Assembly: GCA_041736305.1 (NCBI GenBank)
Contig: JBGSTX010000053.1
Span: 1 to 27,304, forward strand
DNA: 27,304 nucleotides
Source: Oligoflexus sp.
Lineage (GTDB): Bacteria; Bdellovibrionota_B; Oligoflexia; Oligoflexales; Oligoflexaceae
Reading direction: 5' to 3'
In this document: positions 1 through 16,566 of the stretch, piece after piece
Layout: each line of letters begins with the position of its first letter
Numbering within the stretch: the first letter of the stretch is position 1
Program-made: the position numbers and the translations under genes
The notes under the pieces: model-generated
What the model was told of the DNA's origin: nothing
Database searches by the model: none
What the model saw: only the letters and a program-made list of their open reading frames with translations

Positions 1-240
1 CGCAGTAAGCGGTTTTTCTTTCTCCTTAGATCCACTTACCTTTGCAATCAGCTGATCTATAGACTGCGGAGGAAGCGATGCCAAACTCCCCAAGCTCACG
101 GCTCGAGTTCTTCCTGAATCGGGAAGTTGAGCCGCCATAAAGTCAGAATTCAAAACAAATTCTGACGCAAAACCGGCGGTCCCATAGCAGCTTAGGCCAA
201 GCACAAGCGATATGTTTTTTTGCCAGGTGCGTATGCTCAT
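1..240 (-). CDS. Partial exported hypothetical protein (N-terminus only, runs off the left edge)
   Basis: Hand translation from ATG at 240 gives MSIRTWQKNISLVLGLSCYGTAGFA-SEFVLNSDF...KEKPLTA, open to position 1. The N-terminus resembles a signal peptide. An alternative in-frame ATG lies at 264. Not in the supplied ORF track. Confidence 0.6.
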   Translation of the reverse strand, partial: MSIRTWQKNISLVLGLSCYGTAGFASEFVLNSDFMAAQLPDSGRTRAVSLGSLASLPPQSIDQLIAKVSGSKEKEKPLTA

Positions 241-291
241 AGAACCCAATCCCACTGACCTCATTCGGAGTGAATGCAGGTCTCGTCTTAG

Positions 292-318
292 TCTTCGGCA
301 TTTTCCCCTCGTACTTAA
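292..318 (-). promoter_or_regulatory. sigma28 (FliA)-like promoter
   Basis: Minus strand TTAA-N15-GCCGAAGA versus consensus TAAA-N15-GCCGATAA, upstream of the 1..240 ORF. Confidence 0.4.
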
Positions 319-456
319 TAGCAAATACGGAGGGCATTTTCTGCCAGCCTACTCGGATATCAGAAACCATTCTACGAGCTCATTATTAAGAGAAGCTGAG
401 ACTGATGAAAAGGGGCTTTTTTAGGAAATTCCCAAAAAGAAGGGGCGGGGTATAGC

Positions 457-1074
457 TCAGTTAAAAACTTTTCTTAGGCTTTCTTGGAGGCTGCTCGGTA
501 ATGCAGGAAGAACGAGGAGTTCGAGCAGGGAAGATTTGCAGCGGTCTCTGGCAGCCAAGCCTAGATAGCTTTCCCAGCGCTCCAAAACCTGATGCGCTTC
601 AGCCAAACTTGAGGGTCGGCGGGCTTCGATCTCGATACAAGCCTGAAAACTCTGCTGGTAAGTCGCCCGATAAAAAACGACTTCAACGTCTTTGAAATAA
701 AACACCTGGACAGATTTAGCCAAAGTCCCGGACCATAGGATGCCAAGAGGTTTAAGAAAAGCATCTATTGCCGCAGCCTGATTTCCCCGTCTGACATCAA
801 GGGCGAGATTAACTTCGGTTCTCGCCTCATTATCGCCAGCTAGACTTTTGAAAGTAAGCTCTTGCAGCTTAGAATCGATCCGGTGCCTAAAGACACCTGC
901 TGGCAAACTGCCGGTCAGATAATACGTATCGCTCACTTCAGTGGTATAGGCCTCGGAGGGTCCTCGGGCTTTTAACTTCTCGAGAAGAACTGTTTCATCG
1001 TAGTCAAAAGGTACGAGAAACTTATGCTCGATCTCGAGAAATTGAAGCGCTGAGGATGAGGACAGGTCAGTCAT
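457..1074 (-). CDS. CYTH-domain (triphosphate tunnel metalloenzyme) protein, divergent
   Basis: ExExK motif (EIEHKF), DTYY, FRHR, LTFKS, IEIE and SLLEL appear in CYTH order. ATGA overlap with the upstream gene. Confidence 0.75.
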   Translation of the reverse strand: MTDLSSSSALQFLEIEHKFLVPFDYDETVLLEKLKARGPSEAYTTEVSDTYYLTGSLPAGVFRHRIDSKLQELTFKSLAGDNEARTEVNLALDVRRGNQAAAIDAFLKPLGILWSGTLAKSVQVFYFKDVEVVFYRATYQQSFQACIEIEARRPSSLAEAHQVLERWESYLGLAARDRCKSSLLELLVLPALPSSLQESLRKVFN

Positions 1075-2507
1075 TGAATCGTCTGTATTGTGAAGAGATT
1101 ACTTGCCTCTTTGCCAACTGACGAGAGCGTTATCGAAACAAAGACATATCGATTGCCGTCGGTGAGCCATGTTCTGCGCGTCATAAGATTGTTGATGATG
1201 GGGAAAACTTGCTCAATATCAGGCGCTTCATCCAACAGTATGCCCATGACCCCGCGAACAAGTCGCAGTCGACGGACGACTTCGGGTGACATCGTTACAG
1301 CAATAACTGGCGTCCGCACCCCATACGAAGAAAGATGCAAGGCGGTATTTCCAGCTTTAGTTAGGCAGACGATGGCCTTCGCCTGATTACGATAGGCAGC
1401 CTTATATGCAGCAAAGGTGACGGCTTCAATCTCATTAGTGATGTCAGGATTCTTTTTGAGCCAGTTGAGATCTAGATCGTTTGGCGTCGACTCGGCGTCT
1501 TCGATGGTTTTGATAGCCAAAGAAAGGCCGCGTTCAGCATAGCGTCCGTAGGCAAGATCCTCAGAGAGGACAACGGCATCGGCCCCATCAAACACCGCGT
1601 TGGCGATGTCAGACACCTCAGCCCGGGTCGGAGTTGCGTTGTGACGCATAGATCCTAGCATCTCGCTTGCTACCAAAGTCATCTTAGCGAAATCATTGCA
1701 TTTTTGTATTGTTTCTTTAGTCACCATAGGGACCAGCGCGGGGTCCATCTGCATGGCCAAATCAACTCTAGATATCACTACGCCTTTGACGAAGGGCAGC
1801 AACTCATCAAGATTATTAAGGGTCGTACGATTGGCAACTTTCAGAAGCAACCAGGGACAGCTCGGCTGGGATTCTAGCCGACGGGTGATCTTTTCAAGAT
1901 CAGCTGGCTCCTCGATCGAAGGCAGAATGAGATAATCAATATCAGCATCGCCTGCCGCTCTCCAGGTTTCCTCTGGAATATCATCTACTTTGACAGCTCT
2001 AAGAGTAGCTGGGCATTGGATGTCGGCATCTGGATAGACCATTCCACCTTGGACTACTTCAAGCGTGACCTCATCGCGGCCTACTTTTTTAGTCTTCAGG
2101 ACGACCATGCCTTTACCAAGATAGACAGAATGATCGGCAGCGAAGAGTTCTTGCCATTCATCCGTTCGGATGCGGAAGTCTCCCTTACCATTGGCAGGGG
2201 TCATGGTGATCTCTTCACCGAACTTGAGATCACGAGGACTTTCGAGGTCTACAACGCAGCCACGCGTATGTTCGTGCAAATCGACGAGTAGAGGAAGTTG
2301 CTCTTTAGCGAGAGGGACTTCGCGTTTAATACGTCGGCAGTACTGGACCACCTGATCGAGATCGCCCCGTCCTGATACGATACGTATAGCATCAACTTTA
2401 TTAGGATCGATCTTCTTCATCAGTTCATCTGTAAGGCACGAACTATCGAAAGACCAAACCACGTGGGTTCTGCGCATGCGGTTGACCATAAGTGAAACAT
2501 TCTCCAT
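1071..2507 (-). CDS. Pyruvate kinase family protein with degenerate active site (possible pseudo-enzyme)
   Basis: PTRAEVSDIANAVFDGADAVVLS, full A/B/C domain length and a C-domain with AIVCLTKAGNTA...LRLVRGV. Several catalytic motifs are altered (see findings). Confidence 0.9.
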   Translation of the reverse strand: MENVSLMVNRMRRTHVVWSFDSSCLTDELMKKIDPNKVDAIRIVSGRGDLDQVVQYCRRIKREVPLAKEQLPLLVDLHEHTRGCVVDLESPRDLKFGEEITMTPANGKGDFRIRTDEWQELFAADHSVYLGKGMVVLKTKKVGRDEVTLEVVQGGMVYPDADIQCPATLRAVKVDDIPEETWRAAGDADIDYLILPSIEEPADLEKITRRLESQPSCPWLLLKVANRTTLNNLDELLPFVKGVVISRVDLAMQMDPALVPMVTKETIQKCNDFAKMTLVASEMLGSMRHNATPTRAEVSDIANAVFDGADAVVLSEDLAYGRYAERGLSLAIKTIEDAESTPNDLDLNWLKKNPDITNEIEAVTFAAYKAAYRNQAKAIVCLTKAGNTALHLSSYGVRTPVIAVTMSPEVVRRLRLVRGVMGILLDEAPDIEQVFPIINNLMTRRTWLTDGNRYVFVSITLSSVGKEASNLFTIQTIQ

Positions 2508-2580
2508 CGAGACCGGGCAAAGGGGTTTTCGAAGTTTTCTTTTTAAGAGAACTTCTAGGAGCTAAGTTCACCGATCCTGT

Positions 2581-3444
2581 TTAAGTCTTCGGTGAATTCA
2601 GCTTTTCTCCCATGCGTACTGGTCGACTTGACCAAGCTTGGTCCATACGATAGCGTTTTGCCAAGGTCTCGTCAAAAGCAATAATCACCGTCGAACCTAG
2701 CATAAAGGTCCCGAGCTCATCACCTGGAACAAGAGCTGCAGAATGCTCGAGGGTAAAGCTCTGGGGTCCGTCCAGAGCCAATTTGTGGCGTCCTCGATTG
2801 CTTGCGAAATCTTCCAGAAAAGGCGTAGTCATCCGCCCCACGTTTAAGGCTCCGACCATCGCGAGATAAAGTGTCCCTTCGCCGGTTTCAAGGTCGAAGA
2901 CCAATCTTTCATTCCGCGTAAAGAGACGAGGGGTCCATCGGACTGAAGGCTTATTGACAGGCCAAAGTTCTCCGGGAAAATAACGCAAGTTGCGGAGAGT
3001 TCCACGGACGGGACTATGAACTCGATGATAGTTGTGTGGGGCTAGATATATTGTGGCTGAATAGGCCAAATGCACCGAAGATGGGGCCTTAGACCCAAAC
3101 ATTAGCTCTGAGAGTGAGTAGGTCAAGCCTTTTGCCTGCACAGCAGTATTATTGACTGCAGGCCCCGCTACACTCAGGATCCCGTCAGCCGGACTGCAGG
3201 GTTCGCTTTCTATGGGCCGCAGTCCATCCTTAAGCTTGCGAGTAAATAGGTCCTGGACTGAAGCATAGGCTTCGAGCTGGTGTTCGGCTTCGCTCATATC
3301 GATTCGAAAAGTCCGGGCAAAACTCGAACAAAGGAGCCTATTCAGGGGAGCCGGCAGTTTAATCTGCGACACCGACCCTGCAACGCTGCTGGCAATATTA
3401 AGGGGAACAATGCGCCCTATCCCGTCAAACACCTTCGATCGCAT
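2581..3444 (-). CDS. psd: Phosphatidylserine decarboxylase proenzyme
   Basis: FTRKLK, SPADG, YLAPHNYHRVHSP, RNER, VGALNVG and the LGST self-cleavage motif. ATG 3444 is preceded by AGGAG, so it is preferred over the TTG at 3477. Confidence 0.95.
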   Translation of the reverse strand: MRSKVFDGIGRIVPLNIASSVAGSVSQIKLPAPLNRLLCSSFARTFRIDMSEAEHQLEAYASVQDLFTRKLKDGLRPIESEPCSPADGILSVAGPAVNNTAVQAKGLTYSLSELMFGSKAPSSVHLAYSATIYLAPHNYHRVHSPVRGTLRNLRYFPGELWPVNKPSVRWTPRLFTRNERLVFDLETGEGTLYLAMVGALNVGRMTTPFLEDFASNRGRHKLALDGPQSFTLEHSAALVPGDELGTFMLGSTVIIAFDETLAKRYRMDQAWSSRPVRMGEKLNSPKT

Positions 3445-3593
3445 CGGCTTATCTCCTAAAGCAAGTCCAAGAGGCAATTTATCGACCTGGACCGTAATAC
3501 TCCAGCCATACCATAGGACGCGCCAGCGTCTGAGGCTTGGCTGGTGATATAGGGGCCACTGCTATCTCCCAGATCGGAGATACTCTTCAAAAT

Positions 3594-3622
3594 GGGTGCC
3601 GGTCTATTCCCGGCTGTCACCC
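3594..3622 (-). other. Bulged GC-rich hairpin at the 3' end of the omegaRNA (possible terminator or processing element)
   Basis: GGGT-GACA-GCCGG-GAATAGA-CCGGC-ACCC followed by ATTTTG. Confidence 0.5.
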
Positions 3623-3629
3623 GTAAAGG

Positions 3630-3885
3630 CGGCATTTCTGCCGTAGATTCTCTTCGTCAATGTTAGCCGGTGGTTTTTAGAGAAAGCACTGTCCCTACCC
3701 ATCAGGACTGTTTAGCCGTCTCTCGCAGAGCCTGGGACTAGAGAAGTATCCCAAGGTGCCTATATCATTCACCAGTAACGTAGCCCTGTTGCCAGGACTG
3801 AGACTAATCAACCAAGAGCTTAGAAATTTGCTTCCTCCTTTCCAAGCCCTACCCATACCCGTCAGGGTTGGGTGGGGTGATTGAC
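3630..3885 (-). ncRNA. HEARO / omegaRNA (IscB-type OMEGA guide RNA scaffold), orphan
   Basis: The minus strand has the family landmarks in order: GTCAATCACCCC, GGGCTTG, AAGCTC, GGTTGATTAG, CTACGTT, ATAGGCACCTTGGGATACTTCTCTAGTCCCAGGCTCTGCG, TAAACAG...AGTGC, AAAACC, AACATTGACGAAGAG, and a terminal CGGCA-GAAA-TGCCG hairpin. The helices pair. Confidence 0.85.
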
Positions 3886-3891
3886 CAGAAT

Positions 3892-5301
3892 TCAATGCAC
3901 TTCTAAACTTGCGCCTAAAGAAGACAAGCCATCCATACGCGAAATATTTTGGGCAAGGTAATCTTCGAACACAAGCTGTGCCTCCGCCGCCTGGGCCGCT
4001 CGACGTTCCACCTTGCTTTGACCACGGCGTTTCGGAAGGCTAGGCAAGAGGCCCAAGTGGGCATTCATAGGTTGAAAGTCGCCAAGACCGCCTCCCGTAA
4101 CGTAAGCCGCCAGCGCACCTAAGATGGTGCCTCGAGGTGGAAGGTTCCAGTCTTGTCCCGTGAGCCGAGTGCTGGCTAATCTACCGACCAAGAGGCCTAT
4201 AGCTGCGGATTCAACATAACCCTCCACGCCGGTAATCTGTCCAGCCAGATACACATGCGGTGCTTCTCTGAAAGAGAAATCAGCCTGAAGGACTTCAGGG
4301 CTCTTCAGATAGGTGTTGCGATGCACAGAGCCGTAGCGAAAAAATTCGACTTCAGCGAGCCCCGGTAGCATGGAAAAAATTCGCTTTTGCTCGGGCCATT
4401 TCATTTTGGTCTGAAAGCCGACCATCGAAACCATCGTTTCCTCGCGGTTTTCCATCCTCAGCTGAACCGCAGCCCAAGGTCGCTGACCGGTTCGAGGATC
4501 GATAAGCCCCATAGGTTTCATAGGCCCGAAACGCAGGGTTTCACGGCCCCTTTCAATCATAACTTCGATCGGCAGGCAGGACTCAAAGTAGCGAACGTCT
4601 TCAAATTCATGAAGAGGCATTTTTTCCGCCGCAATTACTGCATCGATAAAACGTTCGTACTCCTCCTTATTAAGGGGAACGTTGAGATAATCACCAGGCC
4701 CTTCATCATAACGACTTGCTTTGAAGACCTGTTTAAGATCTATCGAATCAGCTGCCAAAATAGGCGCAATCGCATCATAAAAGTGCAGGCTCTTCTGGCC
4801 ACGACTTAAACCCTGGAGGCTTGTGCTCAGGCCAGCAGATGTTAAAGGTCCACTCGAAACGATCCAAATTTCGCCTGCTTCAGCAGCAGCAAGCTCAGTT
4901 GGCAACTCGATAATTTCTTCAGAAATCTTCTCGAATCCAGGATAAGCACTCAGCTTAGCTTCAATCAGCCGCGAGAAGGCCAGACGTTCAACGGCTAGTG
5001 CTTGTCCAGCCGGGACAGAGCTCGCCTGAGCTGCTTGTATGATCAGTGAGTCAAGAGCTAGCATCTCCTGTTTCAAGAGGCCAGGAGCTGAGTCCGGATT
5101 TACAGACTTGAGAGAGTTGGAGCAAACTAGCTCCGCTAAATCCCCTGTTTGGTGAGCTGCGGTCATTTTTTGCGGCCGCATTTCATAGAGACGGACGCGG
5201 AGTCCACTTCGCAAAGCTTGCCAAGCAGCTTCGCAGCCAGCTAAACCACCTCCCACAATATTTACCAAAGTTCCGCGCTTCATCGCCTCTTCCTTTGTCA
5301 T
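3892..5301 (-). CDS. trmFO: Methylenetetrahydrofolate-tRNA-(uracil-5-)-methyltransferase TrmFO
   Basis: GGGLAGCEAA FAD motif, ELVCSNS, FYDAIAP, FESCLPIE, FGPMKP, HRNTY and AGQITGVEGYVESAA. Confidence 0.97.
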   Translation of the reverse strand: MTKEEAMKRGTLVNIVGGGLAGCEAAWQALRSGLRVRLYEMRPQKMTAAHQTGDLAELVCSNSLKSVNPDSAPGLLKQEMLALDSLIIQAAQASSVPAGQALAVERLAFSRLIEAKLSAYPGFEKISEEIIELPTELAAAEAGEIWIVSSGPLTSAGLSTSLQGLSRGQKSLHFYDAIAPILAADSIDLKQVFKASRYDEGPGDYLNVPLNKEEYERFIDAVIAAEKMPLHEFEDVRYFESCLPIEVMIERGRETLRFGPMKPMGLIDPRTGQRPWAAVQLRMENREETMVSMVGFQTKMKWPEQKRIFSMLPGLAEVEFFRYGSVHRNTYLKSPEVLQADFSFREAPHVYLAGQITGVEGYVESAAIGLLVGRLASTRLTGQDWNLPPRGTILGALAAYVTGGGLGDFQPMNAHLGLLPSLPKRRGQSKVERRAAQAAEAQLVFEDYLAQNISRMDGLSSLGASLEVH

Positions 5302-5333
5302 ATTCGAACGTTCGCCCTTACCAGAGGTATTTG

Positions 5334-6086
5334 TTAGCCAGCGAAAGCCACTATTTTCGCAAATTCATGGGGATCTAAGGATGCACCCCCGACAAGGGCT
5401 CCGTCGACATCCGGCTGCTGCATCAAGCCTTTAATCAGTGAAGACTTCACGCTGCCTCCATAGAGGATCTTGCAACTCTCAGCCTTGGCACCAATTTTTT
5501 GCTTCAAAATGCCCCGAATGAAAGCATGAGCATCTTGAGCTTGCTGATCACTAGCGGTAAGCCCGGTACCAATCGCCCATACGGGTTCGTAGGCGAGTAC
5601 ATACTGAGCCGAAGAAGGGAGGGCCTCAAGAACCGGCCTAAGCTGCTTGCTCAGTACGGCCTCAGTTTGGGCGGCTTCGCGCTCAGCTCGCGTCTCGCCA
5701 ATGCAGATGATAGGAGTGATGCCATTTTCACAGGCGACCTTAGCTTTGGCTGCAACACTCACATCGGTTTCATTGAAATACTGGCGACGCTCGCTGTGCC
5801 CAATCAGCGTCCAGTTGATCCCTAAATCCTTGAGCATTGCCCAGGATATTTCACCGGTGAATGCACCTTCGGCCTTCTCGTGCATATTTTGTGCAGCAAT
5901 AATGAAACCGTCCGCACTGGCTAGCTCTCGGGCCTGCGGTAGAAAAGGGGCAGGAACCGCAAGCAGGACTTCCGCCCGATGGGGGCCTGCAGCTTTTAAT
6001 GAACGCGAAAGCTCCTGAAAATATCCCGGTACGTTCGAATTCAGTAGATTCATTTTCCAGTTGCCAGCAATCAGAGGTGTTCGCAT
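5334..6086 (-). CDS. tpiA: Triosephosphate isomerase
   Basis: AGNWKMN, IGHSERR, AYEPVWAIGTG, YGGSV and LVGGASL. Confidence 0.99.
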   Translation of the reverse strand: MRTPLIAGNWKMNLLNSNVPGYFQELSRSLKAAGPHRAEVLLAVPAPFLPQARELASADGFIIAAQNMHEKAEGAFTGEISWAMLKDLGINWTLIGHSERRQYFNETDVSVAAKAKVACENGITPIICIGETRAEREAAQTEAVLSKQLRPVLEALPSSAQYVLAYEPVWAIGTGLTASDQQAQDAHAFIRGILKQKIGAKAESCKILYGGSVKSSLIKGLMQQPDVDGALVGGASLDPHEFAKIVAFAG

Positions 6087-6103
6087 AGCTAGGCTACTCC
6101 TTT

Positions 6104-7291
6104 CTATTTCAATAGAACTTTGACACCAGGCAGAATCTTGCCTTCGAGAAATTCCAGCGAAGCACCACCGCCGGTCGATATGTGATCTATTTTTTCCGAG
6201 ACGCCTGCCTTATTAGCTGCTGCTACGCTATCGCCGCCGCCGATGACTGTGTAACCCGACGCCTTTGCCATAGCTTCTGCTATCCGGATCGAGCCCCTGG
6301 CAAATGGATCCCACTCAAAGACTCCCATAGGTCCATTCCAAAGGACCGTCTTCGAAAGAGCTATGATGTCTGTGAAACGTTTCCCAGTCCTAAGACCAAT
6401 ATCTAGCCCCATCAGGCCGCGGGGAATGGTTTTGCTGGGGACTTCAACCGGCGTCGCCGTAGCTTCAAAGCGATCGGCACAGATGTGATCCTCGGGAAGA
6501 ATGATCTCGACCTTCCGTGCTTCGGCGTTGCGATAAATCGATGCAACAAGATCCATTTTATCGGCTTCAACCCGCGAATCGCCAACGTCAATGCCCTGAT
6601 ATTTAAGGAAGGTGTAAGCCATAGCGCCCCCTATCAAGAGGTAGTTCGCTTGGTTCATCAGATTGAGGACTACCCCAATCTTATCGGAAACTTTGGAACC
6701 ACCCATAATCACCGTAAACGGTGCCTGAGGCTTCTTCTGCAGCGTAGAAAGCACTGAGATTTCCTGCTCGACAAGAAAGCCAGCAGCTCTCTTTTCAGGC
6801 GGGAAGAGTTCTGCGACCGCGACGACAGAAGCGTGAGCACGATGCAAGGTTCCAAACGCGTCATTCACGTAGCAATCAAAGCCTTGAGCCAGTTTGCTGG
6901 CAAAGTCTAGATCATTTTTGGTCTCACCTGGATGAAATCGGAGATTTTCAAAAAGTATGATCTGATTTCGATCGAGTTGATTGAGAACATGTTCAGCAGG
7001 TTCTTCGGTATAATCTTTGACGAAGGCGACGTCGCAGCCAAGAAGCTCCGCCAGTCGCGCTCCAACCGGCTCGAGGGAAAACTCAGGCATGACTTCACCA
7101 TCTGGCCGCCCTAGGTGAGACATGAGAGCTATTTTATGGGTTCGCTCAAGCAGGTATTTGAGAGTCGGGATAGCTGCGGTAATCCGCGTCTCGTCGGTGA
7201 TCTTGCCTTTTTTAATGGGAACGTTGAGGTCTAATCGAACTAGCACCTTTTTGTTGTTAATATCAAGATCGGCGAGTTTTCTTAGTTCCAT
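6104..7291 (-). CDS. pgk: Phosphoglycerate kinase
   Basis: RLDLNVP, SHLGRP, ENLRF, NDAFGTLHRAHAS, WNGPMGVFE, GGGDS and STGGGASLEFLEG. Confidence 0.99.
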   Translation of the reverse strand: MELRKLADLDINNKKVLVRLDLNVPIKKGKITDETRITAAIPTLKYLLERTHKIALMSHLGRPDGEVMPEFSLEPVGARLAELLGCDVAFVKDYTEEPAEHVLNQLDRNQIILFENLRFHPGETKNDLDFASKLAQGFDCYVNDAFGTLHRAHASVVAVAELFPPEKRAAGFLVEQEISVLSTLQKKPQAPFTVIMGGSKVSDKIGVVLNLMNQANYLLIGGAMAYTFLKYQGIDVGDSRVEADKMDLVASIYRNAEARKVEIILPEDHICADRFEATATPVEVPSKTIPRGLMGLDIGLRTGKRFTDIIALSKTVLWNGPMGVFEWDPFARGSIRIAEAMAKASGYTVIGGGDSVAAANKAGVSEKIDHISTGGGASLEFLEGKILPGVKVLLK

Positions 7292-7410
7292 CTCCGCTTC
7301 CTTTCCTAGAAATCACGAGCATTCTTATGACTAGTTGAAACGTCGGCCGCGAACGTTTAGACTCCAGCACCATACAAGGACAGGCAAACCTTGCAAGTGA
7401 AAGAGACCAT

Positions 7411-8391
7411 ATGGGCAAGATCCAACACCTCTTTATTATCGATCCTATCGAAACCCTCAACCTGAAGCTGGATTCTAGCCTCAGAATGGCCAGGGCTCTG
7501 CGTAACATTGGCCACGAAGTGGCTCTCTGCACCCCAAGCCAAATCGAATGGCTAAGTCGCGATTCGAGCGCAGCTTGCTTCAGCCAGGACTTACGTTTTG
7601 GAAACCATGACATCAACTCTTTACAATTGGGTACGACCCAAAGGCGAAGACTCGATCAGTTCACCGCTATCCATATGCGGAAAGATCCTCCCTACGATCT
7701 GCATTATATTGCCTGTACATGGCTGCTCGATAGCGCTGTGGCCCGTGGCGTGAGAGTCTTTAATGCACCCGCGGCGTTAAGAAACCTCAACGAAAAGCTC
7801 AGCATCTTTCGTTTTCCGGAGGCTATTAACGAGGGACTCGTATCATCTCAGCCTGATCAGTTTCTGGCTTTTCTGGATGATGCGGCGCAGGGAGATGCGA
7901 TTCTCAAGCCTCTCACGCTGTTTGGGGGGCGCGGAGTTCTACGCCTCTGCAGGCAGCAGATGGGCGATGAGCAGATTCGCCATATTTTAAACGAAGAAAC
8001 GCGGCACGGTGAAGATATGCGTCTGATGCAACCTTTCGACCGGCGCATTTTTGAAGGAGAAGTTCGAGCTTTTACGGCCGGTGGACAAGCTGTTTCTTGG
8101 TGCGTGAAAAAGCCTCAAGGCGGAAATTTTTTAGCGAATACCCGCTCGGGGGCGACGATCGAACCCTACAAGCCTTCGCCTAGCGACCTTATACTAGTCA
8201 CAAATATTGCAGAAAAACTCTATGAAGAAGGCGTTTTCTTTGTGGGTTTCGATGTCATAGGTGGTTTTGTCTCAGAGATTAACATAACTAGCCCAAGGCT
8301 TCTCCATGCGGCTCAAGATACCCGAGACTATTATGCTGATCTCGCCAAGATGATTGAGAGTGAGCTGCAGCTTAAAAAAATATATCCATAA
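7411..8391 (+). CDS. gshB: Glutathione synthetase (prokaryotic ATP-grasp type)
   Basis: IDPIETLNLKLDSS, MRKDPP, LRNLNEKL, ILKPL..GGRGV and GFDVIG..SEINITSP. Confidence 0.85.
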   Translation: MGKIQHLFIIDPIETLNLKLDSSLRMARALRNIGHEVALCTPSQIEWLSRDSSAACFSQDLRFGNHDINSLQLGTTQRRRLDQFTAIHMRKDPPYDLHYIACTWLLDSAVARGVRVFNAPAALRNLNEKLSIFRFPEAINEGLVSSQPDQFLAFLDDAAQGDAILKPLTLFGGRGVLRLCRQQMGDEQIRHILNEETRHGEDMRLMQPFDRRIFEGEVRAFTAGGQAVSWCVKKPQGGNFLANTRSGATIEPYKPSPSDLILVTNIAEKLYEEGVFFVGFDVIGGFVSEINITSPRLLHAAQDTRDYYADLAKMIESELQLKKIYP

Positions 8392-13706: not shown

Positions 13707-15833
13707 ATGAAAATGACAAAGCACCTTGCTATCGGACTTGCTATCACTTTTGGATTGGTCGCGTGCAGCAGGGATTCCCAAAAATCCGAGGCGCCCCAGG
13801 CGATTGATATAGGCAGATCATTAGGTAGTACCGCGGCCAACACTGACGCAAATACTGATCTTAGTGAAAAATTCACCATCATGTCAGATGCAGAAAGACA
13901 GAACTTAGAAAATGAAATCAGTACTTTAAAGGGCAATATTCTACAGAAAAAAACTGATATCCAAGACCTGCAAAAACAAATAGTCGACCAACCCGAGAAT
14001 GAGTCGAAGCTGCAAACCAGCTACAAAGAACTCGTTAGCTCGCTTGACGACTTAATAAAGCAATATTCTGAGAGAAGAACAATTCTCGTTGAGGATGATA
14101 TTCAGAAGGACCTTTATCAATTACTCCAGGATGAAGGACTTGCATCACTCGATCAGTTGCCCCAAACTTTTACTAAGGTAAAGGCGAATGTAAACCAAGA
14201 GATAGAGCAAGCTAAAGGCCAAGAAGGTCCGCTCCAAGCGCAAATGTCACAGGCGGAGACACAGTTCAAGTATTCCGTGTCTAACCTACAAAATCTTGAG
14301 ATGACGCTCAGAACAAGGGCTGACGGTCTTAAAGCGCAAGGCTCCTTAGCTCCAGCTCAAGAGGAAGAGCTAATTGCTATCCAAAGTTATCTAGAAGCCG
14401 CGAGCAAAAGGAGTGAGCTCGAGGGCAAAGCGATGGCTATGGACCAGGATATCAAACAGTTAAAGGATGCCATTTATCTATCTCAGCATGAAATGGCGGG
14501 AATACAAGCTCAGTTCATTGAAGCCAAGATGGCCCTTGAAAAAATAGAAGCATCTGCGGAAGATGCTCGGGCGGAAGCACAGGAAAAAGTCTCGAAGCTT
14601 GAAAGTGAACTTGCCAGGCTTGACCTGAACCAAGAACTTGATATGAGCAAACTTCAGAAGAGCCAAGATATATTTGATCAAACTCGCCTGGATTATTCCA
14701 CGGCTGTCAAAAACTTAGAAGAAGCCAGAGCAAAACTCTCACCGCTGACACCAGAAGTGACAGCGGATGCTTCGTTCGATCAAATGAAGGAAGCACAAGA
14801 CAGCCTCGATGCTCTGCATGAACAGGAGGCCAAATGGTATAGCGAGATCAATGGTTTAAAAGTAAATTTGGATAAAATTGAAGTATTAGAAACTTACTAC
14901 CAAGCACGCTTCACCGGAGGATCTGTAGAACAAACCCCGACTACAGAGCAGCAGACCCCAGTTGTACAGCAGACTCCAGCTACAGAGCAGCAAACCCCAG
15001 CGGTGCAGCAAACCCCATCTGCAGAGCAAAAAAGTCCTAGTACTAAACCGCAAGAGCCCACTGTAGAGCAAAAGGCGCCTAAAACTCAGCAAGTCCCTCA
15101 AACCCAAGAAACACCTTTGCCGCAGCAAACAGCTCCGGTAAACCAGCAAAAACCAACCCCAGAAAAACAAACCACAACATCTGAAGTGCAGGCACCGGTA
15201 ACTCAGCAGCAAAAGCCAACCACCGAGCAGCAGGCACCAGTAGCCCAACAGCAGCCAGCCACCGAGCAGCAGGCACCAGTAGCCCAACAGCAAAAGCCAA
15301 CCACCGAGCAGCAGGCACCAGTAGCCCAACAGCAAAAGCCAACCACCGAGCAGCAGGCACCAGTAGCCCAACAGCAGCCAGCTACCGAGCAGCAGGCACC
15401 AGTAGCCCAACAGCAAAAGCCAACCACCGAGCAGCAGGCACCAGTAGCCCAACAGCAGCCAGCCACTGAGCAGCAGGCACCAGTAGCCCAACAGCAGCCA
15501 GCCACTGAGCAACAGGCACCAGTAGCCCAACAGCAGCCAGCCACTGAGCAGCAGGCACCAGTAGCCCAACAGCAGCCAGCCACTGAGCAACAGGCACCAG
15601 TAGCTCAGCAGCAGCCAGTTGGATCACCTGTTCAGAAATCGCCTGGAACTGATGAGGAAACCCCCTCAGAAAGTGCTGAGCCGCCCGTACAAGATGAAGT
15701 AATAATCGTGGAGCAAGAATCTACCAAAAAAGACGAAACCATTCAGATTCAAGAGGACAGCACAGCTCCAGTGCAAACGACAGCTGCCGCTCCCGCTCAA
15801 TCGTCTCAGCAGATCGGAATAATGTCACTATGA
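13707..15833 (+). CDS. Lipoprotein with long coiled coil and Q/P/A/T-rich repeat tail
   Basis: AGGAG RBS and lipobox LVAC. Heptad-like E/Q/L/K-rich region at about aa 60-400, then a low-complexity repeat C-terminus. Confidence 0.85.
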   Translation: MKMTKHLAIGLAITFGLVACSRDSQKSEAPQAIDIGRSLGSTAANTDANTDLSEKFTIMSDAERQNLENEISTLKGNILQKKTDIQDLQKQIVDQPENESKLQTSYKELVSSLDDLIKQYSERRTILVEDDIQKDLYQLLQDEGLASLDQLPQTFTKVKANVNQEIEQAKGQEGPLQAQMSQAETQFKYSVSNLQNLEMTLRTRADGLKAQGSLAPAQEEELIAIQSYLEAASKRSELEGKAMAMDQDIKQLKDAIYLSQHEMAGIQAQFIEAKMALEKIEASAEDARAEAQEKVSKLESELARLDLNQELDMSKLQKSQDIFDQTRLDYSTAVKNLEEARAKLSPLTPEVTADASFDQMKEAQDSLDALHEQEAKWYSEINGLKVNLDKIEVLETYYQARFTGGSVEQTPTTEQQTPVVQQTPATEQQTPAVQQTPSAEQKSPSTKPQEPTVEQKAPKTQQVPQTQETPLPQQTAPVNQQKPTPEKQTTTSEVQAPVTQQQKPTTEQQAPVAQQQPATEQQAPVAQQQKPTTEQQAPVAQQQKPTTEQQAPVAQQQPATEQQAPVAQQQKPTTEQQAPVAQQQPATEQQAPVAQQQPATEQQAPVAQQQPATEQQAPVAQQQPATEQQAPVAQQQPVGSPVQKSPGTDEETPSESAEPPVQDEVIIVEQESTKKDETIQIQEDSTAPVQTTAAAPAQSSQQIGIMSL
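15204..15605 (+). repeat. In-frame coding tandem repeat, 10 units (4 x 42 bp QQQKPTTEQQAPVA and 6 x 39 bp QQQPATEQQAPVA)
   Basis: Counted directly, in the order K,P,K,K,P,K,P,P,P,P. Degenerate 39-bp copies lie at about 14928-15030. Confidence 0.95.
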
Positions 15834-15867
15834 CACCATTCAAAGCATTAGATTCGTTCTAATAGAG

Positions 15868-15892
15868 AGTGGGGACGTACGTCTCCCACTTT
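15868..15892 (+). terminator. Probable terminator hairpin
   Basis: AGTGGG-GAC-GTAC-GTC-T-CCCACT followed by TT, about 35 nt after the stop codon. Confidence 0.5.
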
Positions 15893-15942
15893 CGACTTTA
15901 AGAAGATCCGGATAAGTTGGCTGGTACTTCGCCTCTTAAGCT

Positions 15943-16566
15943 GTGATAGTCTCGGAACAGACTATCCGAAAAGCAGTTCATGATAGGGGGGTACCAGTGT
16001 CGGTTCGACGAGCCTTAGCGATTGTTGCGACTCTCATTTTTTGTGGGATAGCTGCAGTTTACTTAGTTGCGGCTCGCAAGCCTGACCATTACCAAATTGT
16101 TCGGCATGTTCAGATTAACGCAAGCCCCGAACTAATCTTTGAATGGATAGGATTTTTTCCACGCTGGGAGCACTGGTCGCCCTGGAAGTATCGGGATCCA
16201 AGTATCGTAAATCGATTTGAAGGGCCTGAATTTGGCATAGGGTCGAAACTCATTTGGACTAGTAAAAAGAGCGGATCAGGTGAATTTGAGTTCGTCGCCT
16301 ATGAACCAAATTCTAAGGTTCGCTATAGCCTGATCTTTCGTGATTGGGCTTCGACAAGTGAAGGTGAGATCAGTTTGCAGGAACTCCGCAAAGGCTATAC
16401 CGACGTAAGCTGGAAAATTGAAGGCAAAAATTCAATTGCTACCAAAGTCCTTTGGACAGTTTTTGGGATGGAAAAGGCTATGGCGGCAGATTTCGACCTA
16501 GGGCTTTCACTTTTAAAGGCGAAATGCGAAGCCAAACAGTCAGCAGGCGTCCAAAGAATCCACTAA
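15943..16566 (+). CDS. SRPBCC (polyketide cyclase/START-like) protein with N-terminal membrane anchor
   Basis: RHVQINASPELIF, WEHWSPW..DP, GIGSKLIW, G.GEFE, TDVSW and DFDLGLSLLK. The true start may be GTG 15997. Confidence 0.85.
   Translation: MIVSEQTIRKAVHDRGVPVSVRRALAIVATLIFCGIAAVYLVAARKPDHYQIVRHVQINASPELIFEWIGFFPRWEHWSPWKYRDPSIVNRFEGPEFGIGSKLIWTSKKSGSGEFEFVAYEPNSKVRYSLIFRDWASTSEGEISLQELRKGYTDVSWKIEGKNSIATKVLWTVFGMEKAMAADFDLGLSLLKAKCEAKQSAGVQRIH

What the first reader, a model, noticed from the sequence alone, without database searches (positions are those of the whole stretch)
1071..2507. Full-length pyruvate kinase homolog with a systematically rewritten active site
Seen versus canonical motifs (human PKM2 numbering, aligned by eye): TKIVCTxGP becomes THVVWSFDS. 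RLNFSHG becomes RIVSGRG, losing N75, S77 and H78. DTKGPEIR becomes DLHEHTR. KIE becomes KVA, changing metal ligand E272 to Ala. ARGDL becomes SRVDL. ATQMLESM becomes ASEMLGSM (T328S, Q329E). SGETA becomes SEDLA. The PTRAE..D.ANA helix and the C-domain remain well conserved and the frame is intact. Inference: a pseudo-enzyme kept as a metabolite sensor, scaffold or hetero-oligomeric regulator of a canonical Pyk, or an enzyme with new chemistry.
Basis: partly seen in the sequence, partly recalled or inferred. Interest (0 to 1): 0.7.

Follow-up and report, generated by a model that had tools for sequence, protein, structure and literature searches.

The report
Dead pyruvate-kinase paralog with an arginine-less partner
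This gene encodes a full-length copy of pyruvate kinase that has lost the residues needed for catalysis but is strictly conserved across a whole bacterial class, whose real pyruvate kinase has in turn lost an otherwise universal subunit-interface arginine that the dead copy keeps, suggesting the two work as a pair.

Summary
Window 1071-2507 (minus strand) encodes a 478-aa protein with the pyruvate kinase (PK) fold. The K+ site, the nucleotide contacts and Mg ligand E272 are replaced exactly as described. It is not decaying. dN/dS is about 0.05-0.07. Orthologs occur in 90 of 95 genomes of its order, and more divergent forms occur in sister orders. It scores 212 bits against NCBI's pyruvate kinase model, below the 306-bit cut-off.

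A canonical Pyk is present in the same genome. In all 50 genomes examined that hold a PK-like gene, that canonical Pyk lacks the arginine of the PTRAE motif (PKM2 R342). This arginine is present in 85 of 85 and 90 of 91 other Pyks, and the PK-like protein keeps it in 142 of 142 sequences. In studied Pyks this arginine reaches across the A-A interface to prime the neighbour's active site.

My best reading, at about 0.4, is a catalytically dead partner subunit that supplies this arginine in trans. No binding has been shown. A stand-alone role with the co-located psd and CYTH genes remains a serious rival.

The parts
1071..2507 (-). PK-like gene, 478 aa: full A/B/C pyruvate-kinase architecture with a remodelled active site
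   Evidence: ORF. Pfam PK and PK_C. AF2 model pLDDT 86.7. Foldseek best match Mtb PYK 5ws8, TM 0.82. TIGR01064 212 bits, below the 306.4 cut-off.
2364..2384 (-). RIVSGRG, replacing RLNFSHG. R42 (=R73) is kept. N75, S77 and H78 (K+ and nucleotide contacts) are lost.
   Evidence: Family: R in 141/142; the N75 position is V in 115 and A in 14.
2262..2282 (-). DLHEHTR, replacing D-x-x-G-P-[EK]-I-R. D76 (=D113) is kept and the loop is one residue shorter.
1833..1841 (-). KVA, replacing KIE. K223 (=K270) is kept. Mg ligand E272 is Ala.
1755..1772 (-). SRVDLA, replacing ARGDLG (the alpha6' active-site helix). G295 is Val. D296 is kept here but varies across the family.
1647..1670 (-). ASEMLGSM, replacing ATQMLESM (T328S, Q329E). 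S281 is invariant in 142/142.
1596..1634 (-). TPTRAEVSDIANA: the A-A interface helix, with R295 (=PKM2 R342) invariant. This is the most conserved stretch of the family.
   Evidence: Role of the arginine from PMC3467265 section 8 and PMC5980995 sections 18 and 20.
1551..1565 (-). SEDLA, replacing SGETA. S315 is kept. Glu sits at the G363 position in 132/142.
1341..1361 (-). TKAGNTA: C-domain loop at the position of the effector phosphate-binding loop of Pyks, nearly invariant in the family.
   Evidence: T 136, K 108, G 142, N 137, T 142, A 134 of 142. That this loop binds the effector phosphate is recalled knowledge, not tested here.
457..1074 (-). CYTH (triphosphate tunnel metalloenzyme) gene. 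Its ATG overlaps the PK-like TGA (ATGA).
   Evidence: 24.8 bits, cut-off 23.2; ExExK plus the Arg/Lys/Glu set invariant in 18 sequences.
2581..3477 (-). Phosphatidylserine decarboxylase gene directly upstream, 73 bp from the PK-like start.
   Evidence: upstream in 26 of 27 related loci.
3892..7291 (-). Context on the same strand: pgk (6104-7291), tpiA (5334-6086), trmFO-like GIDA-family gene (3892-5301).
   Evidence: tpiA is named from its translation and was not scanned against Pfam.

Best explanation
The gene encodes a catalytically dead paralog of pyruvate kinase, a pseudo-Pyk, which is a core gene of an Oligoflexia-type bacterial class. It keeps the whole PK fold, the oligomerisation helix and the C-domain effector-type loop. 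It has lost the K+ site, the nucleotide contacts and a fixed Mg site, so it cannot transfer phosphate from PEP to ADP. Up to here the account rests on sequence and comparative evidence; no activity was assayed. Inferred: it forms a mixed A-A' dimer or tetramer with the genome's catalytic Pyk. That Pyk keeps every catalytic residue but has lost the universal trans-acting arginine (PKM2 R342). The pseudo-subunit would supply its invariant Arg295 across the interface to prime the catalytic subunit's alpha6' helix. Pyk activity would then depend on, and be regulated through, the dead partner, in the manner of a 'prozyme'.
For: (1) Active-site losses are confirmed. The metal-ligand and K270 positions vary within the family, so they are not catalytic.

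(2) It falls below NCBI's pyruvate kinase equivalog cut-off, 212 against 306 bits, whereas a relative's canonical Pyk scores 517.

(3) Purifying selection is strong. dN/dS is 0.050-0.069 in the three closest pairs. Between G000 and G002/G006 the protein is about 73% identical, compared with psd at about 66% and CYTH at about 54%.

(4) Distribution: 90 of 95 genomes of the order match at E<=1e-50. Divergent forms occur in 10 of 10 examined genomes of sister family f19 and in f18 genome G097. The group is monophyletic and separated from all Pyks by a branch of about 0.94 with support 100.

(5) A canonical-type second match is present in 39 of 41 relatives and in G000 itself.

(6) Complementary loss. 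The canonical Pyk lacks the PTRAE arginine in G000 and 8 relatives, in 29 more genomes of the order, in 10 f19 genomes where it is K or H, and in G097 where it is Q. Arginine is present in 85/85 and 90/91 other Pyks. The PK-like protein keeps P-T-R in 142/142, and the sub-groups keep it in 14/14. Of 61 columns that are at least 90% conserved in general Pyks, the order's canonical Pyks depart only at P, T and R of PTRAE and at the A of N-A-V.

(7) The replacements are varied (L, A, I, F, M, K, H, Q). That pattern fits a released constraint rather than a specific substitute.

(8) The two genomes of the class in which no PK-like gene was found but the psd locus or a good assembly is available (G027, G041) have a standard PTRAE Pyk.

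(9) Published role of the arginine: R342 of the adjacent protomer hydrogen-bonds the alpha6' backbone and primes the active site, and mutating LmPyK Arg310 abolishes activity (passages read in PMC3467265 and PMC5980995).
Against: - No physical evidence of a complex exists, and hetero- versus homo-oligomer was not modelled.
- The two genes are not linked. The canonical pyk lies on other contigs, while the PK-like gene is syntenic with psd and CYTH throughout the order. That synteny points to another functional context.
- The co-occurrence may rest on essentially one ancestral event plus one or two losses. G027 is a MAG with 8% contamination.
- Five genomes of the genus also carry a third, standard PTRAE Pyk, so the pair is not the only route to Pyk activity there.
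- G023 has an arginine-less Pyk, but its PK-like gene carries a single frameshift in the assembly.
- G051 has an arginine-less Pyk and no PK-like gene was found. Its psd is missing too, and the genome is 88% complete.
- In the sister order the replacement is Lys, which might still function.
- Pairwise-distance correlation between the PK-like protein and Pyk is no higher than either shows with psd.
Confidence: 0.4

Rival explanations
1. A stand-alone protein, homo-oligomeric and unrelated to the canonical Pyk. It would be either a ligand-binding sensor or an enzyme with new, nucleotide-independent chemistry on a phospho- or carboxy-metabolite, working with the co-transcribed psd and/or the CYTH triphosphate-tunnel enzyme.
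For: psd lies directly upstream in 26 of 27 related loci. CYTH was found downstream in 22 of 27 loci; in 17 of them, as in the window, its start lies -4 to +26 bp from the PK-like stop. The CYTH catalytic set is intact. Several pocket residues are invariant or nearly so: R42, D76, R82, R247, S281, S315, E316 and the new R288. The effector-type loop TKxGNTA is nearly invariant.
Against: The synteny is confined to one order. In the sister order the neighbour is a Fur-family gene, and neither psd nor CYTH is nearby. Within the order, CYTH is replaced by YqeY or an unknown ORF in 4 loci, and separated from the PK-like gene by an extra ORF in 5. The residues that would be catalytic (the K270, E272 and D296 positions) are not fixed in the family. 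This reading leaves the arginine loss in the canonical Pyk unexplained.
Confidence: 0.3
2. A hetero-oligomeric partner of the canonical Pyk that inhibits or merely tunes it, for example a sensor subunit, without the specific arginine-donation mechanism.
For: The same co-occurrence and interface conservation as the main explanation.
Against: It does not by itself explain why the canonical enzyme could afford to lose an arginine that is essential in studied Pyks.
Confidence: 0.15
3. Still a genuine pyruvate kinase with unusual cation and nucleotide handling.
For: R73, D113, K270, D296, S362 and a Ser at T328 are retained in the window's protein. Some sources annotate it 'pyruvate kinase'.
Against: E272 is Ala. 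N75, S77, H78 and K207 are lost. There is no Lys at the 118 position that K+-independent Pyks use; the relatives' canonical Pyks have that Lys. The metal-ligand positions vary within the family. It scores 212 bits against a 306-bit cut-off.
Confidence: 0.05
4. A decaying pseudogene or relic.
For: Catalytic residues are lost. One relative, G023, has a frameshift.
Against: The frame is intact in all but 2 of the 94 genomes that matched: G023, with one frameshift, and G044, whose break sits at an NN scaffold gap. dN/dS is 0.05-0.07. 44 positions are invariant across 45 diverse members.
Confidence: 0.01

Closest known systems
Canonical bacterial pyruvate kinase (PykA/PykF type; nearest solved fold M. 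tuberculosis PYK, 5ws8)
   Same: The same three-domain fold (TM 0.82), the same length, the PTRAE/DxANA interface helix, the C-domain with an effector-type loop, and the C-terminal strand.
   Different: 22-25% identity. The K+ site, the nucleotide contacts and Mg ligand E272 are lost. It falls below the TIGR01064 cut-off and forms a separate, long-branched clade.
Heteromeric plastid pyruvate kinase of plants (PKp alpha/beta complex)
   Same: Two PK paralogs assemble into one enzyme, and one subunit is needed for the activity and stability of the other. This comes from passages of the review PMC13409958, sections 16 and 28, read.
   Different: In plants I know of no report that one subunit is catalytically dead or that a trans-acting arginine is divided between the subunits (recalled, not checked). 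Here a complex is only inferred.
Pseudoenzyme activators of their catalytic paralogs ('prozymes', e.g. trypanosomatid AdoMetDC prozyme). Recalled from memory; no paper was read here.
   Same: A dead paralog kept under selection, whose proposed role is to activate the live paralog by hetero-oligomerisation.
   Different: A different fold and pathway. No such case has been described for pyruvate kinase in the searches made.
CYTH / triphosphate tunnel metalloenzymes (the downstream neighbour)
   Same: The neighbour carries the ExExK motif and the conserved Arg/Lys/Glu set.
   Different: It is a neighbour, not a homolog. No link to PK-type proteins was found in print (one unrelated review).

Membership tests
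Pyruvate kinase (EC 2.7.1.40) | PK barrel with inserted B domain plus the C-terminal alpha/beta domain | tested here: met
   Pfam PF00224 and PF02887. AF2 model and Foldseek TM 0.82 to Pyks.
Pyruvate kinase (EC 2.7.1.40) | Score at or above the curated equivalog cut-off (TIGR01064, 306.4 bits) | tested here: not met
   212.4 bits. A relative's canonical Pyk scores 517.5.
Pyruvate kinase (EC 2.7.1.40) | Monovalent-cation site (N75, S77, D113, T114), or the Lys at position 118 of K+-independent enzymes | tested here: not met
   V44, G46, D76, L77. Position 118 is T here and variable in the family. The roles of these residues are recalled knowledge.
Pyruvate kinase (EC 2.7.1.40) | Mg2+ ligands E272 and D296 | tested here: not met
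   A225 and D249. Family values are D/S/G/A at the first position and E/D/S/A at the second.
Pyruvate kinase (EC 2.7.1.40) | Catalytic Lys270 and phosphate-binding Arg73 | tested here: met
   K223 and R42 are present in the window's protein. Lys is not fixed in the family (K 96, R 43 of 142).
Pyruvate kinase (EC 2.7.1.40) | Nucleotide contacts H78, R120, K207 | tested here: not met
   R47 (variable). R82 is offset by one residue. The K207 position is A/M/T/S. The roles are recalled.
Pyruvate kinase (EC 2.7.1.40) | PEP + ADP -> pyruvate + ATP activity | not testable with these tools
   Needs an enzyme assay.
Pseudoenzyme (dead paralog under selection) | Clear homology to an enzyme family, with catalytic residues lost and those positions not fixed | tested here: met
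Pseudoenzyme (dead paralog under selection) | Purifying selection and long-term retention | tested here: met
   dN/dS 0.05-0.07. 90 of 95 genomes of the order.
Pseudoenzyme (dead paralog under selection) | A live paralog in the same genome | tested here: met
Hetero-oligomeric activator ('prozyme'-type) of its catalytic paralog | The catalytic partner lacks an element that the dead paralog retains | tested here: met
   The PTRAE arginine is lost in the canonical Pyk of every PK-like-bearing genome examined and kept in 142/142 PK-like proteins.
Hetero-oligomeric activator ('prozyme'-type) of its catalytic paralog | A physical complex, with activity that depends on the partner | not testable with these tools
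   Needs co-purification and mixed-enzyme assays.

The most novel reading that the evidence does not exclude
Pyruvate kinase in this bacterial class is an obligate two-gene enzyme. One subunit is catalytic and has given up the universal trans-acting arginine. The other is a dead paralog that supplies that arginine across the A-A' interface and senses a metabolite through its intact effector loop. The last step of glycolysis would then be gated by a dedicated pseudo-subunit. That would be the first 'prozyme' arrangement described for pyruvate kinase, and the first in a bacterial central-metabolism enzyme.
Probability: 0.35. Interest if true: 0.85.

Novelty: new variant of a known kind. Interest (0 to 1): 0.72.

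Why it matters
Pyruvate kinase is among the most studied allosteric enzymes, and the interface arginine (PKM2 R342) is treated as universal and essential. A whole bacterial class whose catalytic Pyk lacks that arginine, and which always carries a dead paralog that keeps it, would be a natural experiment in how allostery and catalysis can be split between paralogs. It can be tested directly with two recombinant proteins. There is also a practical point: these genes are currently annotated 'pyruvate kinase', which overstates glycolytic capacity in metabolic reconstructions of Oligoflexia-type genomes.

Tried and rejected
- **Complex prediction, PK-like with CYTH.** No verdict (score 0.00). This is not evidence either way. 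It used the only complex job, so the PK-like:Pyk pair could not be modelled.
- **Public sequencing runs.** No RNA holder was listed, so nothing can be said about expression or co-transcription. No reads were laid.
- **Distance-matrix ('mirror tree') test over 24 genomes.** The correlation between the PK-like protein and Pyk is r 0.93, partial 0.44. That is no higher than PK-like with psd (0.94, partial 0.54) or Pyk with psd (0.93, partial 0.46). All three follow the species tree, so there is no specific co-evolution signal.
- **Promoter and terminator scan of 1-7600.** It found only a weak 9/12 promoter-like site at 2675-2647 on the minus strand, and no minus-strand terminator between psd, the PK-like gene and CYTH. 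This is too weak to define the operon.
- **Literature searches.** No paper describes a dead PK paralog, a PK-CYTH link or Oligoflexia Pyk. One search was swamped by the term 'pseudokinase'. Supplements were not consulted.
- **ESM Atlas.** Only PK clusters came back; nothing new.
- **Earlier findings of this scan.** None.
- **Pfam on ORFs near the PK-like gene in some relatives.** No family was found for the 314-388-aa ORFs inserted between the PK-like gene and CYTH, nor for the 177-aa ORFs that follow it in L034 and L035.
- **dN/dS for the window's own gene against relatives.** It could not be computed because dS is saturated. The values quoted come from closer pairs within the genus, where dS is about 1.1-1.2 and already near saturation.
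- **Rejected: recent duplication of the local Pyk.** The PK-like clade does not nest within the order's canonical clade. That tree is a quick search rooted at the midpoint.
Full report
**The observation**

Window 1071..2507 holds an intact 478-aa ORF on the minus strand. Pfam finds a PK barrel (E 2e-35, 123 bits) and a PK C-domain (E 4e-18). An AlphaFold2 model built on 45 family members is confident (pLDDT 86.7, pTM 0.87). Its best structural matches are solved pyruvate kinases, led by M. tuberculosis PYK 5ws8 at TM 0.82 and 24% identity.

Their residue equivalences hold in the HMMER alignment to PKM2 chains and in MAFFT alignments with canonical Pyks from related genomes. In PKM2 numbering:
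- kept: R73, D113, K270, R294, D296 and S362;
- lost: N75, S77, H78, E272 (now Ala), G295 (now Val) and K207;
- changed conservatively: T328 to Ser and Q329 to Glu.

**It is not a pyruvate kinase by curated criteria, and it is not decaying**

The protein scores 212 bits against NCBI's pyruvate kinase equivalog model (cut-off 306.4). The canonical Pyk of a relative scores 517.

Nei-Gojobori dN/dS is 0.050-0.069 for the three closest ortholog pairs (dS 1.07-1.19) and 0.04-0.13 across the 29 of the 40 listed pairs in which it could be computed. For the window's own gene, dS against every relative is saturated.

Between G000 and its congeners G002 and G006, the identities are:

| Protein | Identity |
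|---|---|
| Canonical Pyk | 82-87% |
| PK-like | 73% |
| psd | 66-67% |
| CYTH | about 54% |

. The PK-like protein therefore evolves like an ordinary constrained protein. It is faster than the true Pyk and slower than its neighbours.

**Family and distribution**

Names that sources give to close homologs point to Oligoflexus, Oligoflexales, Bdellovibrionota and Pseudobacteriovorax. All 41 searched genomes (G000 plus 40 relatives) matched the query. 39 carry a strong ortholog, G013 has only a contig-end fragment, and G027 has only a canonical-type hit. 39 of the 41 also show a canonical-type match at 21-35% identity.

Across the 131 genomes of the phylum group, 94 match at E<=1e-50. Within the window's order that is 90 of 95, counting G000. 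Apparent breaks were checked. G048 is intact, G044 breaks at an NN scaffold gap, and G023 has one real frameshift in the assembly.

In a library clustered at 50% identity, about 55 clusters score above about 190 bits. Scores then fall to about 165 bits for ordinary Pyks. Between those levels lie two divergent sub-groups of 490-536 aa, one of which has an insertion before the K270 strand. These correspond to second PK genes found in 10 of 10 examined genomes of sister family f19, and to a reduced 360-aa form in the 1.2-Mb genome G097.

A quick maximum-likelihood tree puts all PK-like forms (28 rows) on one side of a long branch (0.44 + 0.50, support 100) and 34 Pyks on the other. The 34 include the 8 canonical Pyks of the same order.

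**What is and is not conserved**

In 142 family members the positions of K270 (K 96, R 43), E272 (D 60, S 22, G 22, A 19), G295 (V/R/I/L) and D296 (E 99, D 24, S 11, A 7) vary. Outside the window's family, a D at the E272 position goes together with R or K at the G295 position. Inside the family, both positions are small or hydrophobic. In a conserved metal-dependent enzyme the metal ligands would be expected to stay fixed. This looks more like a metal site that has been filled in.

Invariant or nearly invariant residues are R42, D76, R82, R247, S281, S315, E316 and a new R288. So are the stretch A280-E316, which includes T-P-T-R-A-E-V-S-D-I-A-N-A, and the C-domain loop T-K-x-G-N-T-A.

**The canonical partner**

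G000 has a canonical pyk split over two contig ends (C197 and C339). It carries every canonical motif: TKIIGTLGP, RLNFSHG, DLQGPKIR, AKIE, ARGDLG, ATQMLESM and LSGETASG. It also has a PPDK-type gene.

The unexpected result is in that canonical enzyme. Where Pyks read P-T-R-A-E, it reads A-S-A-A-E.
- The same arginine is missing (L, A, I, F or M) in the 8 canonical Pyks first fetched, in 29 further genomes of the order and in G051.
- It is K or H in 10 genomes of the sister family.
- It is Q in G097.
- Arginine is present in 85 of 85 diverse Pyks and in 90 of 91 library representatives, the exception being a truncated fragment.
- Of 61 alignment columns that are at least 90% conserved in those 85 Pyks, the order's canonical Pyks depart at only four: P, T and R of PTRAE and the A of N-A-V. 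The PK-like proteins (26 of 26) and the divergent sub-groups (14 of 14) keep all four.

According to passages read in two papers, this arginine (PKM2/CpPyK R342, LmPyK R310) reaches from the adjacent protomer across the A-A interface. It hydrogen-bonds backbone carbonyls of the alpha6' helix (R294, G295) and primes the active site, and mutating it in LmPyK abolishes activity (PMC3467265 section 8; PMC5980995 sections 18 and 20).

**Exceptions and controls**

- G027 (same order, 87% complete, 8% contamination) has a psd locus with no PK-like gene downstream. Its only Pyk is a standard PTRAE enzyme, 43% identical to the order's type.
- G041 (family f17, 94% complete) likewise has only a standard Pyk.
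- G051 has an arginine-less Pyk and no PK-like gene was found. Its psd is missing too and the genome is 88% complete, so the locus is probably unassembled.
- Five genomes of the genus carry a third, standard PTRAE Pyk. G000 does not, within a 92.7%-complete assembly.
- G098 has both a PTKAE and a PTRAE Pyk as well as a PK-like gene.

**Gene context**

On the minus strand the order is pgk, tpiA, a trmFO-like gene, psd, the PK-like gene, then CYTH. The CYTH start codon overlaps the PK-like stop codon as ATGA.

psd is directly upstream in 26 of 27 related loci; the 27th is cut by a contig end. CYTH was found downstream in 22 of 27 loci. It follows within -4 to +26 bp in 17 of them and lies behind one extra ORF with no Pfam hit in 5 more. 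In 4 loci a YqeY gene or an unknown ORF takes its place, and one locus is cut by a contig end. The CYTH protein keeps ExExK and the Arg/Lys/Glu set.

In the sister order the PK-like gene instead sits beside a Fur-family gene, with neither psd nor CYTH nearby. The psd/CYTH synteny is therefore limited to one order, whereas the pairing with an arginine-less Pyk spans the class.

**Interpretation**

Supported by sequence and comparative evidence: this is a dead PK paralog under strong purifying selection, a core gene of its lineage, and it coexists with a live Pyk.

Inferred, at about 0.4: it assembles with that Pyk and donates Arg295 in trans. Three observations fit this. The losses are complementary. 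The residues now found at the freed position are varied. The interface helix is the most conserved part of the dead copy.

The main rival, at about 0.3, is an independent ligand-binding or new catalytic role tied to psd and CYTH. A milder version, at about 0.15, is a regulatory hetero-oligomer without arginine donation. Normal PK activity (about 0.05) and decay (about 0.01) are unlikely.

The distance-matrix test gave no specific co-evolution signal. No binding evidence exists.

**Novelty**

Searches of the held literature found no description of a dead PK paralog, an arginine-less Pyk clade, or a PK-CYTH link. The nearest known arrangement is the heteromeric plastid PK of plants (review passages). 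The nearest mechanism is that of the 'prozyme' pseudoenzymes, which is recalled rather than checked.

Noticed in passing
G000 contigs C197:2-553 and C339:4120-4485 (L001, L002): The genome's canonical pyk is split over two contig ends with about 15 residues missing between them. It has all catalytic motifs but reads RASAAE where Pyks read RPTRAE.
   Followed up: yes
L102-L106 (G010, G007, G002, G004, G008): Five genomes of the same genus carry a third PK gene of standard type (ISKIE, ATQMLESM, SPTRAE). G000 has none in its 92.7%-complete assembly.
   Followed up: partly
L073 (G097:C18), 360-aa ORF: A 1.2-Mb genome of a sister family has a shortened PK-like protein. Its Pfam PK match covers only profile positions 232-323, plus PK_C. 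It still reads TPTRAEVSD. Its canonical Pyk reads IPTQAE.
   Followed up: partly
L057-L066, L072 (sister family f19): Divergent 510-623-aa PK-like genes. Database relatives of this sub-group (P0168-P0177) carry an insertion with an 'RHPS' motif before the K270 strand. A Fur-family regulator gene lies directly upstream in the three loci scanned (L059, L061, L062).
   Followed up: partly
L018, L020, L022, L023, L033: An extra ORF of 314-388 aa with no Pfam hit lies between the PK-like gene and CYTH in five relatives.
   Followed up: partly
L110 (G023:C6:219900-221700): The PK-like gene of G023 has a single frameshift near residue 326 in the assembly. Both halves are otherwise conserved. It may be a sequencing error or a real break.
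   Followed up: partly
window 13707-15833 (+): A 708-aa ORF with no Pfam hit. It has a lipoprotein-type N-terminus (…GLVAC), a long coiled-coil-like region and a tandem Q/P/T/E-rich repeat (…QQKPTTEQQAPVAQ…). This explains the AT skew of 0.36 at 14001-16000.
   Followed up: partly
window 5334-7291 (-): pgk and tpiA lie on the same strand upstream of trmFO, psd and the PK-like gene, so a dead glycolytic paralog sits about 3 kb from two live glycolytic genes. Whether this linkage holds in relatives was not checked beyond trmFO.
   Followed up: no
G000 C227:3165-4034 and C188:14322-15224: Two PPDK_N-domain genes (919-aa and 794-aa frames). The genome therefore also has a pyruvate phosphate dikinase or PEP synthase type enzyme.
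   Followed up: no
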